This document shows, piece by piece, positions 3,017 to 63,451 of a stretch of DNA of 64,000 nucleotides. Source of the stretch: a virus (taxonomy: Duplodnaviria; Caudoviricetes); the IMG/VR virus record IMGVR_UViG_3300029288_000159, positions 7,498 to 71,497 of that record. One strand, given 5' to 3'. The position numbers were made by a program, and so were the translations under genes. Positions within the stretch are counted from its first letter, which is position 1. Every line of letters begins with the position of its first letter. Under the pieces are notes generated by a model. That model saw only the letters and a list, made by a program, of their open reading frames with translations. It had not been told where the DNA came from and did not search any database.

Positions 3017-3331
3017 GTGCCCGAGTCGCAGGCCGTGCGTGACCCGGAGTCACTGCTCTGGGTCACCCCCGGCACCACCGACGGATACGAATCCGGCATC
3101 GCGCTGCACGGTGGGTACGAGCGCGATCTCCCCTGGCTCCGCGCCGAATACGAGAAGATTCTCGCGCGAGGCATGAGCGAAGAGAAGAGCGGCTCTCAAG
3201 TGCCCTGTGTAATAAGCAATGATGACATCAGGATGTTGATATACAAATGGCAGGCAGAGTTGTGTGAGATGTGGCTCAAGAGAGCCATTGAGCGGCTTGA
3301 GCGCGCAGGCATTTCGGCCAACAAACCATAA
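3017..3331 (+). CDS. Hypothetical protein
   Basis: Fills the gap between antirepressor and portal; start uncertain. Confidence 0.45.
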   Translation: MPESQAVRDPESLLWVTPGTTDGYESGIALHGGYERDLPWLRAEYEKILARGMSEEKSGSQVPCVISNDDIRMLIYKWQAELCEMWLKRAIERLERAGISANKP

Positions 3332-3334
3332 AGC

Positions 3335-5104
3335 ATGGACTACTCCCGCCTCGAAGGCATCGAGAAAGCTCTCCTCGCCTTCGAGGCGAATGTCAGCCCG
3401 CGGTATCGCTATTTGGATTGCCTGGAGCGATGGGTAGAGGGCCGGCAGTACGAGGGGCTGACCGATTGGTTCGACACACGCAAGCCGCTTTTCGAGCGGG
3501 CGCCATGCATCGTCTATTTGCTGACCCGAGGAAGTATCGAGTCGAAACGCGACCTCGTGGTGGGCGAGGGACACTTCCCGGAAATCACTGCGTCGCCCGA
3601 TGAGGACGACGAGGACTTCGACGAGGAAACGGGGCTCGGCCCCGAGGACTCGGAGACGCTCGACAGGTTCGTGCAGCGGGCGATGACGAAGGCCGCATTC
3701 GCCCCGGCCATCCGCGAATCACTCGAGCACGGGCAGGGCGTAGGCTCCGCTGTGCTGCTCTTCGGAGCGCGGAAGGGGCGGCCCTTCATCGAGACGACGA
3801 AAGCGAAGTGGAGCGAGCCCACGCTCGACAACGAGGGCAATTGCACGAGACTCGAGATTCGATATCCGTACCTCGATCCCTACAAGGACAAGGCCGGCAA
3901 ATGGAAGGTCCGCGCCAAAATCTACCGGCGCGTTATCGACGAAACGACCGATACTACCTACCGCCCAGCGGACGCCGATGAGCAGGGCCGCGAGCCGGCC
4001 TGGTCAGCCAACCCCGAGCTGACCTATTCACATGGCCTCGGCTTCTGCCCCGTCATCTGGTACCCATTCGCGAAAGGGTGCTCGACCGCAAATCAGATAG
4101 ACGGCAAGGCGGTGCACGATGGGCTGCTAGACGAGATTCGCGCACTTGACCAGGCGCTCTCACAGCGACATCGCGCGGTGCTATTTACTGCCGATCCGCA
4201 GTGGACTGAATGCGGCGTAGTCCCCGGGTCGAATCCATCATCAGTGGGAAACCGAGCGGTGATGCCTGCCACCCAACATGGTGGCCCAGAAGGCCCCGAC
4301 AACAAGGGGACCGGGATGTACATCGAGCCGGGCAACATCGGCCCCGCTCGAAAGAAAGGCCCCGGCGAAGTCTGGCAGTATCCCGACAAGGACACGAAGG
4401 TCCAAATGCATTGCCTTCCCGGCGATGCGGTCAAAGCGACGATGGAACACTCGTCGGACCTGCGTTTGAAACTTTGCGAATTGCTTGCCTATGTCCCACT
4501 CGATCCCGAAAGCATCAAAGGCATCCGCACACTCTCGGGCAAGGCACTTACCGCCTTGCGCAAACGAGAGATCAATCGCTGCAATGGTATTCGAGACGAC
4601 CTTGGGCAGCACTGCATCATCCCTGCCATTCGAATGCTGCTACGACTCTGTGTGGTGCTGGGCTCTCGCGGTAAGGGGGCGATTCGCGTCCCCGGAATAC
4701 AGAAAACTCTCCCAATCCTCCAACGCTTCCTCGAAGAAGACCCCGATCTGAGGCTCATTTGGGGTTCGTACGAAGATGAAGACCCCGAAGAGGAAAAGGC
4801 CACGGTCGATACGGTCAATGTGGCGCTTACTGGGAAGTTTATCACCAAGCGCATGGCCGTGCAGAAGGTGAAAAACATCTTCGGAATCGAGAACGTAGAC
4901 CAGGCAGTCGATATGCTCGAAGAGGAAGCTCAGCAAGCGCAGGAAAAAGAGCTCGATCTGATGGGATCCATGCACAAGCTCGCAAACGACGATGGGACTA
5001 CAGGAAACCAAGGCAGCTCTGGCAGCAATGCTCTTGGCGGAAAGCCGCCTAAGAAAGCGTTTGGGGGCGGCAACAAATCTATGGCAACGAGTCCCCCAAA
5101 GTAG
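3335..5104 (+). CDS. Portal protein
   Basis: 589 aa, downstream of terminase and upstream of a MuF-like gene; disordered C-terminal tail. Confidence 0.75.
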   Translation: MDYSRLEGIEKALLAFEANVSPRYRYLDCLERWVEGRQYEGLTDWFDTRKPLFERAPCIVYLLTRGSIESKRDLVVGEGHFPEITASPDEDDEDFDEETGLGPEDSETLDRFVQRAMTKAAFAPAIRESLEHGQGVGSAVLLFGARKGRPFIETTKAKWSEPTLDNEGNCTRLEIRYPYLDPYKDKAGKWKVRAKIYRRVIDETTDTTYRPADADEQGREPAWSANPELTYSHGLGFCPVIWYPFAKGCSTANQIDGKAVHDGLLDEIRALDQALSQRHRAVLFTADPQWTECGVVPGSNPSSVGNRAVMPATQHGGPEGPDNKGTGMYIEPGNIGPARKKGPGEVWQYPDKDTKVQMHCLPGDAVKATMEHSSDLRLKLCELLAYVPLDPESIKGIRTLSGKALTALRKREINRCNGIRDDLGQHCIIPAIRMLLRLCVVLGSRGKGAIRVPGIQKTLPILQRFLEEDPDLRLIWGSYEDEDPEEEKATVDTVNVALTGKFITKRMAVQKVKNIFGIENVDQAVDMLEEEAQQAQEKELDLMGSMHKLANDDGTTGNQGSSGSNALGGKPPKKAFGGGNKSMATSPPK

Positions 5105-5642
5105 TCTCACACAGACCATCTCGAACTCCACAGCGATTGGGGCACTCGATTCATGGCATCGCGGGGTGTTGTCGGGGCATCGCGATCTCAACTGGATTGC
5201 AGAGCAATTCGATGAGGAGATCGAGGCAGTCGAGCCGCAAGAGCCGACATCACAGATCTCACGCCGGGCATCGTCAATCGGCCTGAACTACGAGCGCGCT
5301 GTTGCTCGATCAGCGGATGATGCAGAACGTGCAAATGCGAAGAATCCGATAGCCAGCGCGATAAGAGAAAACGCATACCGTCTTGACCGCATCGCAGCTA
5401 CCGAAAACTCGATTGCATTCTCATCTGGTCGCCGAGAGTTCATCACTGCATCGGTCATCAATTCAGTTATCAAGCGCTCACGTGTTGTGCAGGTGTGGTT
5501 CGCGCTTCTCGACGCTTGTCGAATTTGTCAGGGGTTGAATGGCGAAAGAGTTCAACTGGGCGGCTCGTGGAACGGGCAGCTGCCCGGGTACGTACACGCA
5601 AGATGTCGATGTATTGATTCGTATGAGGTAACCGAAGAGTAG
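4992..5642 (+). CDS. Minor head (MuF/SPP1 gp7-like) protein; true start probably downstream
   Basis: C-terminal W...D.AC.IC..LNG...P...H.RCRC motif. Confidence 0.7.
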   Translation: MGLQETKAALAAMLLAESRLRKRLGAATNLWQRVPQSSLTQTISNSTAIGALDSWHRGVLSGHRDLNWIAEQFDEEIEAVEPQEPTSQISRRASSIGLNYERAVARSADDAERANAKNPIASAIRENAYRLDRIAATENSIAFSSGRREFITASVINSVIKRSRVVQVWFALLDACRICQGLNGERVQLGGSWNGQLPGYVHARCRCIDSYEVTEE

Positions 5643-5683: not shown

Positions 5684-6367
5684 ATGGCTGATGAAGTCAC
5701 TCCCGTTATTGCTCCCACTCCCGTCGCTTCTCCCCCTCCCGCCCCTACGGCTGCTCCCGCTCCTGTTGCCACTGCTGAACCTACGCCCGCTGCCCACATG
5801 CCAGTCCCCGGAGAGCCGGGCTGGCTGAAGTCCAGACTCGATCAAGCTCGACAGACCGAGCGCAATGCCATCCTGGCCGAGCTCGGACTCACCGACATGG
5901 CCGCGGCCAAGACGGCCGTAGATACTGCATCAGCAGCGGCAAACTATACAGCGAGGCTCGCTCAGTTGGAAGCTGTAGCGAAAGTGCAGGCTGGCAACAT
6001 GCTGATGGGTCTTACGGAACAGCAACAAGCCGCGGTGAAGGCTCTTGCCGGCGATGACCCCGCCAAACAGATGCAGACGATCATGGCTCTGCAACCAACC
6101 TGGGGACCTCCGCCGCCCCTCACGATCAAGAGCGAAGACCTGGCAACGAAGATGGCCACGGCAGGGACGATTGCTGCATCTAGTCCTCCGGCGCCCGTTC
6201 AGATAGTCCCCGGCGCGACCACCGCACCACCTCCAATTGCTCCCGCCGGCGCTTCCGCCGCCCCGCCCGACCATCGAGCCATCTACGAAGTAATGTCGGA
6301 AACCAACCCGTTTGCAGCCGCCGAGTACGGCGCGCTGCATCCCGAAATCTACACCCCGAGGACCTAA
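5684..6367 (+). CDS. Putative scaffolding protein (Pro/Ala-rich, helical core)
   Basis: Position after the MuF-like gene and composition. Confidence 0.55.
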   Translation: MADEVTPVIAPTPVASPPPAPTAAPAPVATAEPTPAAHMPVPGEPGWLKSRLDQARQTERNAILAELGLTDMAAAKTAVDTASAAANYTARLAQLEAVAKVQAGNMLMGLTEQQQAAVKALAGDDPAKQMQTIMALQPTWGPPPPLTIKSEDLATKMATAGTIAASSPPAPVQIVPGATTAPPPIAPAGASAAPPDHRAIYEVMSETNPFAAAEYGALHPEIYTPRT

Positions 6368-60361: not shown

Positions 60362-60628
60362 TGTCCGCCGCCCTTGCAAGCGCCCCCCTTGGCGCCCGCC
60401 TCCGCCCTTATCGCTCCGCTCGGGGCGCTGCTGCCCTCGGGCGGGGCCATGTGCCTGCCCAAATCGGCCGGTGGAAGATGCGTGTCGATTGCAAGGCCGG
60501 TAATTGGACCGGATATGCAATAAGAAAAGCAGATGGCACCTGGCAGATGTCTGTAACCATAAACGGAGAGATGCGTGTAGTGCGAGTCTACCCGACCCTG
60601 CAAAGACAGAACGTGAAGAGGATTATCA

Positions 60629-60907
60629 ATGAAAGAAAAGGGTAAAGTAGTAGAAGGTATCTGGTCCGGGCCGGCACCCATCTGCCCGCTCTGTCACCAG
60701 AGACAAGACATTCATCACAATGCGCTAAGTTGTATGCAACGCCAGATTGATGGGATGGCCGAGAGTATTAATAAGATGCGCGAAGTTATAACTGCGAATG
60801 TTCTAGTGATAACTACGCTTGACCAGCGCATCGCGTTGCTCTCGGCCGATCTCGACGACGAGCGGGACCGGGCAGAAAAAAGAGTGGCACTCAGCGAAAG
60901 TGGTTGA
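60629..60907 (+). CDS. Small zinc/coiled-coil protein
   Basis: CPLC...H...C followed by heptads. Confidence 0.5.
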   Translation: MKEKGKVVEGIWSGPAPICPLCHQRQDIHHNALSCMQRQIDGMAESINKMREVITANVLVITTLDQRIALLSADLDDERDRAEKRVALSESG

Positions 60908-60949
60908 AATCTCTTGCACCCTCCCGGGGTCGCGTGGTAGGCCGGGAGA

Positions 60950-61129
60950 GTGAGCAAAAAAGCTGGACCCATACGAACCACGCAGAAGAATCTTCGGCTC
61001 GCACCAGATGAGATGCGCAGAGCCGAGAAGGTTATGAACCATTACGGATTGGACCTTCAGGCTCTTCTTCGAATGCTCGTTAAGCAGGAGCATGATAGGC
61101 TTTTCTCACATGGCAAGGAGGCAAGGTGA
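60950..61129 (+). CDS. RelB/DinJ-like ribbon-helix-helix protein (59 aa), absent from the ORF track
   Basis: Manual translation MSKKAGPIRTTQKNLRLAPDEMRRAEKVMNHYGLDLQALLRMLVKQEHDRLFSHGKEAR; GGGAGA RBS; GTGA overlap with the Cas12f start. Confidence 0.75.
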   Translation: MSKKAGPIRTTQKNLRLAPDEMRRAEKVMNHYGLDLQALLRMLVKQEHDRLFSHGKEAR

Positions 61130-62550
61130 AGGTGAAGAAGAAGAAGAAGAAGGAGGAGGAAAAGGAGAAGGAGACGGGCACAGTTGTTCGTGTGCGGGCT
61201 GTGCGAGTGGAGATTGCAAAGCCTCTCGACATCCAGTGGCGAGAGCTGGACGATCTGTTGCGAGATAGACGAGCCGTAATGCATCGGCTGCTCAATGCAG
61301 GCGTGCTTCACATTGCTTCTCAGCGCTGGGCCGGGAATGAGAAACCGCGCGCGCTTGAAGCCATCAAGGCAGAATTGTCGTCTTGGCAAACGTGGTGCGC
61401 TGAGATGGGCGCCAAGACGAAGGATGAGAAAGAACGCATCAGACACGAACGTAGAGCGACGATGACATTGGCGTCGTCAATCACAGATGCACTGCAACAG
61501 CGGTGCGTTGACGCAGATCAACGGTGGCGCAAAAACAAGGGCAACGCCAGATTGCCTACCGCAAAACGTGGGGCTCCAATCTTCATCCGTGATGGTGGTT
61601 GGACGCTTGAGTCGGACAAGAACGGTTGGATCCTGTCGATGAGACTTGAGGGTGTCACCCCAACGAATCATCGTCCAGGCAAGGTCCGCGTCGCTTTGCG
61701 ACCGTCATCCGGAAAGCATCATGGCATTCTGCAACAGATGGTGAAAGGCTCAGTCAAGATAGGCAATTGCCAAGTTGTACTCGATGAGTCGACTGGCAAA
61801 TGGTACGCCATCCTAGCGTTCACTGAGGAGTTGAATCGAGCGGCCCCACCACGAGACGGTACCAAGACACTTATCGTCCATAGAGGGCAACGCAACTTTA
61901 TGTATGCCCTGTGCACCGACGGGCGAACGCGTATATTGCGCGGCAACAAGTTTGCGGCTCAACGATTGCATCTGAAGAGGAGAGCGGAGGCTTTCAAGCG
62001 TGTGTCAGCGTTCGAGCGTGGTGCCGGAGCCAAGGGGCATGGCACCAGACGACGGTACGAAACTCATGATGCTTTGGATCGGAAGCTCAAACGAGTCGTT
62101 CATACATATTGTCAGACTTCGGCTGCCTGGGTGTTCAAGGCCGCCAAGGATCTTGGCTGTGGACGCATCCTCATCGAGGACTATGGCGGTATAGAACAGA
62201 GCGACGAACGAGCTGAGCGCAGATTCTTGGATCACTTCCCGTACTACCAACTGGGGACGGCAATCAAGTGGGTCTGCAAGCGAGAGCAACTGGAGCTGTT
62301 GGAAGGTCCGGCAGCATTCATCTCGCAAACGTGTCCACGATGCAAGCATCAGGATGCTCGTCAACACAACACCCGAACCGGAGTGTTCCATTGCATCAAC
62401 CCAGACTGCGGATTCGACCGACCAGCAGACTGGGTAGCAGCATTCAATCAAGGTATCGCTTTTGGCATTGACATGAGTGAGATAAAGAAGATACTTGCTG
62501 CTCAAGAGAGGGTAGCGGCCGAAATCAAAAAGAAGGCAAAGGCGGCATGA
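61126..62550 (+). CDS. cas12f: Cas12f1-like type V effector with altered RuvC (H252-E351-D435); probably nuclease-deficient
   Basis: N-terminal RVEIAKPLDIQWRELDDLLR, GAKGHG, GCGRILIEDY, RFLDHFPYYQL, SQTCPRC...CINPDC...ADWVAAFN follow the AsCas12f1 layout as recalled; RuvC-I reads LIVHRG instead of xGIDLG; adjacent to the array. Confidence 0.85.
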   Translation: MKVKKKKKKEEEKEKETGTVVRVRAVRVEIAKPLDIQWRELDDLLRDRRAVMHRLLNAGVLHIASQRWAGNEKPRALEAIKAELSSWQTWCAEMGAKTKDEKERIRHERRATMTLASSITDALQQRCVDADQRWRKNKGNARLPTAKRGAPIFIRDGGWTLESDKNGWILSMRLEGVTPTNHRPGKVRVALRPSSGKHHGILQQMVKGSVKIGNCQVVLDESTGKWYAILAFTEELNRAAPPRDGTKTLIVHRGQRNFMYALCTDGRTRILRGNKFAAQRLHLKRRAEAFKRVSAFERGAGAKGHGTRRRYETHDALDRKLKRVVHTYCQTSAAWVFKAAKDLGCGRILIEDYGGIEQSDERAERRFLDHFPYYQLGTAIKWVCKREQLELLEGPAAFISQTCPRCKHQDARQHNTRTGVFHCINPDCGFDRPADWVAAFNQGIAFGIDMSEIKKILAAQERVAAEIKKKAKAA

Positions 62551-62555
62551 CGAGC

Positions 62556-62714
62556 AGGGCCGCGAATGCAGTTGTGATGGGTGTGCTGCCGCGACTCCGC
62601 GCGGCAAACGCGAGACCACGTTACGTGCTCGCGAACCTGGGGACACTCAGGACGATGGGGGATGCCCCATCAGCACCATGACCGCCCACCACACCTGCAT
62701 TCGCGGCCCTTCTG
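62556..62714 (+). ncRNA. tracrRNA-like structured RNA
   Basis: 16-bp perfect closing stem (62556-62571 with 62695-62710) enclosing four hairpins; 62671-62683 is complementary to repeat nt 21-33 (one G-U), 62684-62689 to repeat nt 7-12. Confidence 0.8.
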
Positions 62715-62735
62715 CGTTTGGCAAAAGGAGATAAC

Positions 62736-63362
62736 ATGTCATTCAACATGAAAGAGGCCACCCTGGAGCAAATCGTCGCTGAGGCTCTCGCTCTGAGAGC
62801 TAAAGCAGAGCGGTCGGCCGCTGAATATCTGGCGTTTCTGTATCAGTTCGAGTTGGAGCGTGAGGACCTGTGGAAGACTGCAGGTGTTGCAACCTACAGT
62901 CAATTCCTGAATTCGCATTCGCTGGTGAATACGTCGAGATACGACGTGTTCCGTAAAGGTGTGGAGAAGCTGGGCAGTGTGGCTCAGGCTATCGAGATAG
63001 GCGAGCCATCCACTGCAGAGGCAGGCAAGATCAAGGACCCCCTTGCTGTGCCAGTGTTTGAGGGGATCACGAAAGCGTGGATAGATATTCACGATGGCAC
63101 CGTCCCAAGTGAACAGACGGCAGAGTGCCATCGCGCGCAGGCCGAACCAAAGAAGTCTCCAGTGTTCTTCCGGCAGTCAGAACTTCATGAGTTGCGCGCA
63201 AAAGTGCAACAGTTGGCAGCCAGGAACAGGCAGCTGGAAGCCGACTTGAGAACGAAGCAAAAGACGATATACGAACTGCAAGCCAAGCTGGAAGGAATAG
63301 CTGCCAAGAAGGCTGCCAAGAGAGCGGCGCGAGTCGAAAATTCAGAAGGCGCGAGCGTCTAG
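62736..63362 (+). CDS. Unknown accessory protein (208 aa) between tracrRNA and array
   Basis: AAGGAG RBS; helical N-terminus with LWKTAGVATYSQFL; C-terminal basic coiled coil. Confidence 0.75.
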   Translation: MSFNMKEATLEQIVAEALALRAKAERSAAEYLAFLYQFELEREDLWKTAGVATYSQFLNSHSLVNTSRYDVFRKGVEKLGSVAQAIEIGEPSTAEAGKIKDPLAVPVFEGITKAWIDIHDGTVPSEQTAECHRAQAEPKKSPVFFRQSELHELRAKVQQLAARNRQLEADLRTKQKTIYELQAKLEGIAAKKAAKRAARVENSEGASV

Positions 63363-63451
63363 CAATTTGGATTCGGAATGCGGGCGTGGATGGAGACCCG
63401 CTCGCAATCCGGGCCGCAGGTCCTTGAAATCATTGTGTCTGTGGAGGGGCT
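63363..63451 (+). promoter_or_regulatory. CRISPR leader (short)
   Basis: Non-coding stretch before repeat 1 containing CTCGCAA and TTGAAAT, ending in GGGGCT. Confidence 0.5.

What the first reader, a model, noticed from the sequence alone, without database searches (positions are those of the whole stretch)
62556..62714. Multi-branched tracrRNA-like RNA whose anti-repeat overlaps its own closing stem
Seen: a ~28-bp closing stem (16 perfect bp plus an extension with two mismatches) encloses four hairpins: TGCCGCG/CGCGGCA, CGCGAG-CACG/CGTG-CTCGCG, CCTGGG/CTCAGG and GATGGGG/CCCCATC. The segment CAGCACCATGACC-GCCCAC can pair with repeat nt 21-33 and 7-12 (19 bp, 8-nt bulge); CCTTCTG at 62708 could pair with nt 16-22. 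Part of the anti-repeat is also paired by the 5' arm. Inference: the crRNA must strand-invade, or the 5' arm is trimmed; the long stem could be an RNase III substrate or a switch.
Basis: partly seen in the sequence, partly recalled or inferred. Interest (0 to 1): 0.8.

Follow-up and report, generated by a model that had tools for sequence, protein, structure and literature searches.

The report
Phage Cas12f helper RNA (tracrRNA)
The folded 155-base RNA is the helper RNA (tracrRNA) of a small CRISPR-Cas12f-like system carried by a phage. Its long end-to-end stem is conserved by compensating mutations in more than 15 related phage loci, so it is a well-supported new member of a known RNA class, not a new kind of element.

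Summary
There is a 16-bp perfect closing helix, extended to about 29 bp, and four hairpins. A 13-nt anti-repeat is unique in the 64-kb window apart from the eight repeats.

The fold is far better than chance (z = -8.7) and is conserved. A model built from this one sequence finds 14 homologues beside related cas12f-like genes. In them 94% of pair cells are paired and 51 of 58 pairs show compensatory changes, including all 24 pairs of the closing helix.

The anti-repeat covaries with each locus's own repeat. The loop of hairpin 1 (CUCC) covaries with the last repeat bases (GGAG), which gives the short pseudoknot known from Cas12f1 guides. The effector is a phage-borne sister clade of AsCas12f1.

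A 4-6-bp inner helix pairs the 5' strand with the first anti-repeat bases in about 14 of 16 loci examined, so the crRNA must displace it.

The closing helix corresponds to the "head-to-toe" stem predicted for SpCas12f1. Its role as a processing or insulating stalk is inferred, not shown.

The scan noted a similar RNA in another phage genome (e1-5729716).

The parts
61126..62550 (+). cas12f-like effector gene (474 aa), sister clade of AsCas12f1; His at the RuvC-I Asp position
   Evidence: PF07282 8e-10 and NF040570 1e-25. PADLOC Cas12u3 5e-36. Clade profile against AsCas12f1 8j12, E = 2e-52 over the full length; H252 aligns with As D225.
62468..62495 (+). sigma-70-like promoter candidate inside the 3' end of cas12f (TTGACA-16-GATACT)
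   Evidence: 10 of 12 match. Not more frequent than in shuffles, so this is only a lead.
62556..62710 (+). tracrRNA, whole closed structure
   Evidence: Fold z = -8.7. Models R1 and R2 find homologues beside related genes, all on the gene strand. 94% of pair cells paired and 51 of 58 pairs compensatory. G.U pairs 56 against A.C 9.
62556..62582 (+). 5' arm of the closing (head-to-toe) helix
   Evidence: Pairs with 62684-62710. The helix is present with unrelated sequences in 17 loci; cognate arms always pair better than any non-cognate pair. 24 of 24 pairs are compensatory.
62583..62587 (+). inner helix, 5' strand (GUGCU); pairs with AGCAC of the anti-repeat
   Evidence: 5 of 5 pairs compensatory and 91.5% paired. 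Tracks anti-repeat changes in L007, L010 and L016.
62588..62605 (+). hairpin 1; loop ACUCCG (62594-62599) predicted to pair with the repeat's last bases GGAG (short repeat:anti-repeat pseudoknot)
   Evidence: Loop and repeat tail covary: CUCU:AGAG in L004 and L007, UUCC:GGAA in L037, UUUC:GAAA in L013, and a fifth pair G-C in L015 against A-U in L018.
62609..62633 (+). hairpin 2, the sequence-conserved stem (CGCGAG / CUCGCG)
   Evidence: Five pairs never vary in 14 homologues.
62636..62651 (+). hairpin 3
   Evidence: 6 of 6 pairs compensatory.
62654..62671 (+). hairpin 4
   Evidence: 7 of 7 pairs compensatory.
62671..62683 (+). anti-repeat (long repeat:anti-repeat partner); the centre CAUGACC (62677-62683) is an unpaired bulge
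   Evidence: 13-bp complement of repeat nt 21-33, unique in the window. Covaries with the cognate repeats.
62684..62710 (+). 3' arm of the closing helix
62736..63362 (+). conserved accessory ORF (208 aa) with an AAGGAG ribosome-binding site 15 nt after the helix
   Evidence: Homologues lie next to the effector in L004, L007, L008, L010, L012 and L013. No Pfam, PDB or fold match.
63396..63421 (+). array leader motif (CCGCUCGCAA...CGCAGG)
   Evidence: A related motif follows the closing helix directly in L012, L016, L017, L023, L024, L025 and L026.
63452..64000 (+). CRISPR array: eight identical 36-nt repeats, running to the contig end

Best explanation
The region 62556-62710 (+) encodes the tracrRNA of a phage-borne, AsCas12f1-like type V-F CRISPR system.

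Shown by comparison:
- The RNA has four hairpins enclosed by a long 5'/3' closing helix.
- The 3' 17-18 nt of each crRNA repeat pair with it in two places. One is a 10-13-bp long duplex with the anti-repeat just after hairpin 4. The other is a 4-6-bp pseudoknot between the repeat's last bases (GGAG) and the loop of hairpin 1 (CUCC), next to the guide. This is the long plus short repeat:anti-repeat layout of Cas12f1 guides.
- In the free RNA, a 4-6-bp inner helix formed by the strand just 5' of hairpin 1 occupies the first anti-repeat bases. It leaves 5-9 central anti-repeat bases as an open bulge.

Inferred:
- The bulge is the entry point for the repeat, which then displaces the inner helix. 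In the window this costs about 7 kcal/mol against about -22 kcal/mol gained. The outer closing helix stays intact.
- The closing helix matches the 'head-to-toe' stem predicted for SpCas12f1. It acts as a sequence-independent stalk that lets the RNA fold on its own and be cut out of a longer transcript, most likely by a double-strand-specific RNase such as RNase III. The basis is that the RNA has no room for its own terminator and sits between ORFs or inside arrays.
For: - Effector identity.
- Fold significance.
- Family: 23 hits of model R1 with E < 0.01, all on the gene strand beside related genes. A model built from the window alone recovers 14 homologues.
- Covariation: 94.0% of cells paired against 60.5% shuffled (0 of 500 shuffles reach it) and 35-45% when partners are slid. 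51 of 58 pairs are compensatory. Closing helix 24 of 24, inner helix 5 of 5.
- Closing helix: cognate 5'/3' flanks beat every non-cognate pair in 17 of 17 loci, mean -62 against -30 kcal/mol.
- RNA level and strand: G.U 56 against A.C 9.
- Anti-repeat and pseudoknot covariation.
- Energetics: opening the anti-repeat costs 1.3-7.3 kcal/mol and keeps the closing helix; the duplex gains -15 to -23 kcal/mol.
- Context: 5 nt separate the cas12f stop from the helix, a ribosome-binding site lies 15 nt after it, and no terminator follows. In L004 and L010 the RNA lies inside arrays and a repeat core follows its 3' arm directly.
[quoted passage not shown] Cas12f1 guides have a long duplex plus a 5-7-bp short pseudoknot duplex that is essential (PMC11246509).
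Against:
- The covariation alignment was fitted to the model, which inflates pair counts somewhat.
- The RNase III role is pure inference. A long conserved helix could equally be a protein-contacting or stabilising element.
- One close relative (L008) lacks the inner helix, and in L025 it is at best 3 bp.
- The inner-helix strand often resembles the repeat. Part of its co-variation could therefore come from shared descent, not from selection for pairing. L016 argues against this, because its strand differs from the repeat yet still pairs.
- A promoter-like site at 62468 would allow a dedicated transcript, although the RNA would still need a processed 3' end.
Confidence: 0.6

Rival explanations
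1. The RNA is the same tracrRNA, but the closing helix is a permanent structural part of the ribonucleoprotein. It would contact the second Cas12f protomer or clamp the two RNA ends against exonucleases. It would not be a processing site.
For: Cas12f1 guides carry long peripheral helices that stabilise the RNA (AsCas12f1 coaxial helix). Truncating the SpCas12f1 head-to-toe stem lowered in vitro cleavage somewhat. The helix stays intact when the anti-repeat is opened.
Against: The arms show no sequence conservation at all and vary in length from about 25 to 45 bp with varying bulges, which argues against specific protein recognition. The SpCas12f1 stem is unresolved in cryo-EM and its removal improved editing in human cells. 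This model does not explain how the RNA is released from between ORFs or arrays.
Confidence: 0.25
2. The closed form is a regulatory switch. The inner helix and the closing helix would keep the tracrRNA auto-inhibited until the effector or crRNA is present, or the helix would tune translation or stability of the flanking cas12f and accessory-ORF mRNAs.
For: Two mutually exclusive pairings of the same anti-repeat bases are both kept by compensatory changes. The helix ends 15 nt before the ribosome-binding site of the next ORF.
Against: Opening the inner helix is cheap (1-7 kcal/mol), so inhibition would be weak. The position of the RNA relative to ORFs differs among loci, so a fixed translational role is unlikely.
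Confidence: 0.08
3. The RNA works in cis as a natural single guide, like a TnpB omega RNA, fused to the repeat-spacer unit that follows it.
For: In L004 and L010 a repeat core follows the 3' arm directly. In more distant loci a leader and the first repeat follow within about 55 nt.
Against: In the window a 627-nt ORF and a leader separate the RNA from the array. Every locus has multi-unit arrays that must be served in trans, some of them upstream of the RNA.
Confidence: 0.04
4. It is not a functional RNA. The helix would be a DNA-level inverted repeat (a mobile-element end or recombination site) or a transcription terminator.
For: The minus strand also folds well, z = -6.5.
Against: G.U pairs outnumber A.C by 56 to 9 on the + strand. 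All model hits are on the gene strand. The internal hairpins and the anti-repeat covary. No U-tract follows.
Confidence: 0.02

Closest known systems
AsCas12f1 / OsCas12f1 tracrRNA-crRNA (type V-F, former V-U3 group)
   Same: The effector clade aligns over its full length with AsCas12f1 (E = 2e-52). The RNA is a multi-stem scaffold with a long repeat:anti-repeat duplex plus a short guide-proximal pseudoknot duplex, which is essential in AsCas12f1. It has a sequence-conserved stem 2-like hairpin.
   Different: AsCas12f1 is reported to have no RNA element at the 5' end of the guide core. Here a 25-45-bp helix joins the two ends. The long duplex is only 10-13 bp. There is no detectable sequence similarity and no Rfam family. 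The effector has His at the RuvC-I Asp position and is phage-borne.
SpCas12f1 guide RNA with its predicted 'head-to-toe' stem (PMC12255294; Wang et al. 2022 Cell Rep 40:111418, cited there)
   Same: Stems 1-4, a repeat:anti-repeat stem 5, a pseudoknot, and a helix between the tracrRNA 5' terminus and sequences at the anti-repeat end. The 5' end is complementary to sequences that also take part in repeat pairing.
   Different: In SpCas12f1 the stem is a prediction from one sequence, unresolved in the structure and dispensable in vitro. Here it is supported by compensatory change at every pair across more than 15 loci.
TnpB omega RNA / reRNA
   Same: It shares the conserved core logic: a hairpin plus a pseudoknot next to the guide, encoded downstream of the nuclease gene. 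In three relatives a repeat core overlaps the nuclease stop codon.
   Different: The guide is supplied in trans from a CRISPR array, and the scaffold does not overlap the ORF.
RNase III processing stalks (rRNA precursor helices, phage T7 early mRNA sites)
   Same: A long helix of unconstrained sequence joins the sequences flanking a functional RNA inside a polycistronic transcript (from general knowledge).
   Different: Cleavage here is untested. This is an analogy, not a membership claim.

Membership tests
tracrRNA of type V-F (Cas12f1) CRISPR systems | Encoded next to a cas12f gene and a CRISPR array, on the array's transcription strand | tested here: met
   Gene 61126-62550, RNA 62556-62710 and array from 63452, all on the + strand. 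The same holds in more than 15 loci.
tracrRNA of type V-F (Cas12f1) CRISPR systems | An anti-repeat complementary to the repeat (long duplex) | tested here: met
   13 bp, unique in the window. It covaries with the cognate repeat in every locus examined.
tracrRNA of type V-F (Cas12f1) CRISPR systems | A short guide-proximal repeat:anti-repeat pseudoknot | tested here: met
   The hairpin-1 loop CUCC pairs with the repeat end GGAG. There are four compensatory variants (L004/L007, L037, L013, L015). This is comparative evidence only, with no structure.
tracrRNA of type V-F (Cas12f1) CRISPR systems | Transcribed, bound by the effector and required for targeting | not testable with these tools
tracrRNA of type V-F (Cas12f1) CRISPR systems | The effector is a Cas12f nuclease with a D-E-D RuvC triad | tested here: not met
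   The clade has an invariant His at the RuvC-I Asp position; Glu and Asp are kept at RuvC-II and RuvC-III. This bears on the effector's activity, not on the identity of the RNA.
SpCas12f1-type head-to-toe stem | A helix between the tracrRNA 5' end and the region at or after the anti-repeat | tested here: met
SpCas12f1-type head-to-toe stem | Homology to the SpCas12f1 element | not tested
TnpB omega RNA | Scaffold overlaps the 3' end of the nuclease ORF and carries its guide in cis at a transposon end | tested here: not met
   The RNA starts 5 nt after the stop codon, and the guides come from an array.
Any Rfam family | Match to a curated covariance model | tested here: not met
   There is no relevant match at E <= 1 in 60500-64000.

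The most novel reading that the evidence does not exclude
The closed tracrRNA is a self-contained, portable cassette. A sequence-free head-to-toe helix lets it be dropped anywhere in a phage transcript (between ORFs or inside arrays) and cut out by a host double-strand RNase. A built-in repeat-mimic strand gates the seed of the anti-repeat until a crRNA, helped by the effector, displaces it. This would give the so far unexplained, in vitro-dispensable head-to-toe stem of Cas12f guides a biogenesis and gating function. It would also show a stage in which a tracrRNA and minimal 18-nt repeats are interleaved in one precursor.
Probability: 0.3. Interest if true: 0.6.

Novelty: new member of a known kind. 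Interest (0 to 1): 0.45.

Why it matters
This gives a covariance-supported secondary structure for the guide scaffold of an uncharacterised, almost exclusively phage-borne sister clade of AsCas12f1. It defines the parts a single-guide design would need: a 13-nt anti-repeat, a 4-nt pseudoknot and conserved hairpin 2.

It also provides the first comparative evidence I know of that a head-to-toe helix in a Cas12f-type tracrRNA is under strong selection. The SpCas12f1 counterpart was only predicted and was dispensable in vitro. That contrast points to an in vivo role in biogenesis or stability that ordinary experiments can test.

The effector's His at RuvC-I and the conserved accessory gene make the whole locus worth cloning.

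Tried and rejected
- RNAcofold of tracrRNA plus repeat showed no anti-repeat pairing. This is an algorithmic artefact: a second strand binding inside a loop closed by a helix is a pseudoknot in the concatenated representation. I replaced it with energy bookkeeping. A first attempt with enforced base-pair constraints crashed.
- Second and third anti-repeat segments (GCCCAC, CCTTCTG): cognate is no better than non-cognate.
- Rfam: nothing relevant.
- Single-protein scans of the viral and genome collections found nothing. Profile scans worked.
- GenBank phages hold no homologue of the gene plus RNA and no convincing spacer target; the single hit had E = 0.05.
- Cas12p ('Cas12 hacker'), a phage-encoded miniature Cas12, was considered. 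It is larger (500-700 aa), has an AAAC:UUUG pseudoknot motif, and no such entry appears among the PDB sequence matches.
- Accessory ORF: only coiled-coil noise in Pfam and PDB. A confident model (pLDDT 88.8) has no significant fold match; the weak lead is the SopB DNA-binding domain at probability 0.44.
- MAFFT alone misaligned the closing arms, so I used a model built from the single window sequence with its structure.

Full report
**Context**

The window is the last 64 kb of a 71.5-kb, about 97% complete viral contig and ends at the contig end. The elements from 60.9 kb to the end are:
- a 59-aa ORF;
- a 474-aa gene at 61126-62550 (+);
- the flagged region;
- a 208-aa ORF at 62736-63362 with an AAGGAG ribosome-binding site;
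- a short leader;
- a CRISPR array of eight identical 36-nt repeats from 63452 to the contig end.

The 474-aa protein carries the Cas12f1-like TNB domain and matches the TnpB-family model. PADLOC scores it best as Cas12u3/Cas12f. A profile of its clade aligns over the full length with AsCas12f1 (8j12, E = 2e-52), then with OsCas12f (9nzq) and SpCas12f1 (9i8y) (PMC13186708).

**Observation**

The + strand of 62551-62720 folds to -101.7 kcal/mol, against -64.0 +/- 4.3 for shuffles (z = -8.7). The features are:
- a 16-bp perfect outer helix (62556-62571 with 62695-62710);
- extensions UGUG/CACA, UGGGU/GCCCA and GUGCU/AGCAC;
- four hairpins;
- a 13-nt complement of repeat nt 21-33 at 62671-62683.

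That complement occurs nowhere else in the window except in the repeats; 0.11 are expected by chance.

**Relatives**

The protein has 22 near-length homologues at 34-57% identity and 643 more distant ones. Contigs for four of them, plus profile scans of the viral, metagenome and genome collections, gave about 40 loci. Those with enough flanking DNA look phage-like. Only two short MAG contigs among about 185,000 prokaryote species carry a relative.

The three closest loci contain an obvious homologue of the RNA. Hairpin 2 and the anti-repeat are conserved, but the closing arms are completely different and still complementary.

**Family and covariation**

- A core model (R1) from four sequences found 23 hits with E < 0.01. 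All are on the strand of the cas12f-like gene and adjacent to it.
- For 17 loci the 50 nt upstream and downstream of the core pair far better with each other than with the flanks of any other locus. This holds in 17 of 17 loci, with means of -62 against -30 kcal/mol, while the arms share only chance identity of 0.30.
- A second model (R2) was built from the window sequence alone with its MFE structure. It recovered and aligned 14 homologues, with the window excluded.
- On that alignment 94.0% of pair cells are standard pairs. The shuffled value is 60.5% (0 of 500 shuffles reach the observed value), and 35-45% when partners are slid.
- 51 of 58 pairs show changes on both sides. This includes all 24 pairs of the closing helix, all 5 of the inner helix, and nearly all pairs of hairpins 1, 3 and 4.
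- Hairpin 2 is conserved in sequence.
- G.U pairs outnumber A.C by 56 to 9, so the constraint acts on + strand RNA.
- The alignment is fitted to the model, which favours pairing. The flank-swap control does not depend on it.
- L013, which the filters missed, has the same fold (z = -7.4).

**How the crRNA docks**

Almost every locus has an array. Repeat consensus sequences end in (U)UGGAG or a variant. In each locus the segment after hairpin 4 is the complement of repeat positions about -16 to -4. It differs between loci in step with the repeat. Examples are CAGCACCAUGACC, ACUCUGCAUUCC, ACCUUCACUCC and AACCUGCUCUCCG.

The hairpin-1 loop is ACUCC(G/A) where repeats end in GGAG. The variants are:

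| Locus | Loop motif | Repeat end |
|---|---|---|
| L004, L007 | CUCU | AGAG |
| L037 | UUCC | GGAA |
| L013 | UUUC | GAAA |

The fifth pair switches between A-U and G-C (L018 against L015).

This is the long plus short (pseudoknot) repeat:anti-repeat arrangement described for Cas12f1, where the short duplex is essential (PMC11246509). The element map is hairpins 1-4, the repeat:anti-repeat duplex, the pseudoknot and the closing helix. It matches the SpCas12f1 description of stems 1-4, stem 5, the pseudoknot and a predicted head-to-toe stem (PMC12255294).

In about 14 of 16 loci examined, the 4-6 nt just 5' of hairpin 1 pair with the first bases of the anti-repeat. This leaves 5-9 central anti-repeat bases as a bulge. 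L008 lacks this inner helix, and in L025 it is at best 3 bp.

The inner helix changes together with the anti-repeat:
- window: GUGCU:AGCAC
- L007: CGCU:AGCG
- L010: UGCC:GGCA
- L016: GAUGGU:GCCGUC, where the strand differs from the repeat and still pairs

The same anti-repeat bases also covary with the repeat, so two mutually exclusive pairings are both maintained. Forcing the anti-repeat open costs 1.3-7.3 kcal/mol and leaves the closing helix intact. The anti-repeat:repeat duplex is worth -15 to -23 kcal/mol. Displacement of the inner helix by the crRNA is therefore plausible, starting from the bulge. This is inference from thermodynamic models.

Cognate repeat 5' halves pair with the region after the anti-repeat no better than non-cognate ones. 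In L004, L007, L010, L008, L021 and L025 only the 3' 16-20 nt of the repeat are conserved.

**Role of the closing helix (inferred)**

- The arms are free to vary in sequence.
- Total length is about 25-45 bp, with variable bulges.
- In the window it starts 5 nt after the cas12f stop and ends 15 nt before the next ribosome-binding site, with no terminator.
- In L004 and L010 the RNA lies inside arrays and is followed at once by a repeat core.
- Its position relative to the gene, the accessory ORF and the arrays differs from locus to locus.
- The SpCas12f1 counterpart is unresolved in cryo-EM and dispensable for cleavage in vitro.

Together these observations fit a stalk that insulates folding and allows excision from a longer transcript, with RNase III the obvious candidate. 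A purely structural or stabilising role is the main rival. A weak promoter-like site at 62468-62495 might give a dedicated start, but it does not remove the need for 3' processing. No expression data could be obtained.

**Comparison and novelty**

The RNA meets the testable defining features of a Cas12f1-type tracrRNA. It has no Rfam family and no homologue in GenBank phages. The head-to-toe idea exists in the literature for one ortholog. What is new here is the depth of comparative support, the conserved inner helix over the anti-repeat seed, and the mobile placement of the RNA. I rate it a new member of a known kind, with moderate interest.

The scan's notes record a similar 163-nt closing-stem RNA at the head of another phage Cas12f-like operon (e1-5729716). 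I did not test that note.

Noticed in passing
window 61879-61881 (codon H252): The RuvC-I catalytic Asp position (AsCas12f1 D225) is His in this protein and is invariant (HRG) in all 18 aligned clade members. The RuvC-II Glu (E351) and RuvC-III Asp (D435) are kept. The effector may bind without cutting, or may use an altered active site.
   Followed up: partly
window 62736-63362; L004:6096-6701, L007:6629-7195, L008:6929-7543, L010:6304-6894, L012:5311-5865, L013:1507-2061: A conserved accessory protein of about 185-208 aa (29-39% identity) lies next to the effector. It is all-helical with a long C-terminal coiled coil and a basic tail. The AlphaFold model is confident (pLDDT 88.8). There is no Pfam or PDB match; the only weak fold lead is the SopB DNA-binding domain.
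   Followed up: partly
L004:5427-7217, L007:5506-6590, L010:5576-6995, L008:5507-6904, L021, L025: These arrays conserve only the 3' 16-20 nt of the repeat, which is the anti-repeat-pairing and pseudoknot part. Unit spacing varies widely (36-290 nt). They look like minimal-repeat arrays.
   Followed up: partly
L004:5432-5449, L007:5519-5535, L010:5576-5590: In the three closest relatives a repeat core starts at or overlaps the stop codon of the cas12f-like gene, which recalls TnpB/omega RNA geometry. The window does not show this.
   Followed up: no
L004:5756-5934, L010:5838-6089: The tracrRNA sits inside the array. Repeat units lie upstream, and a repeat core follows the 3' arm of the closing helix directly.
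   Followed up: partly
window 63396-63421; L017:5630, L024:2861, L026:3986, L012:6064, L023:2193: A conserved leader motif CCGCUCGCRAA lies just after the closing helix. It repeats the 3' strand of hairpin 2 (GCUCGCGAA), usually 103 nt downstream of it. In the window the accessory ORF separates this leader from the RNA.
   Followed up: partly
window 63488-63964: Spacers are 37, 27, 37, 35, 36, 21 and 19 nt. A 12-nt duplication of the repeat start lies at 63525-63536. No spacer target was found in GenBank phages.
   Followed up: partly
window 61126-61180: The effector starts with a Lys/Glu-rich tail encoded by an AGAAGG tandem repeat at 61136-61174. The true start codon is uncertain.
   Followed up: no
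L035:2738-2852, 3291-3415, 5057-5163, 5937-6045: One distant locus gives four weak hits of the core RNA model on the gene strand. Those checked lack a clear closing helix. They may be multiple diverged copies.
   Followed up: no
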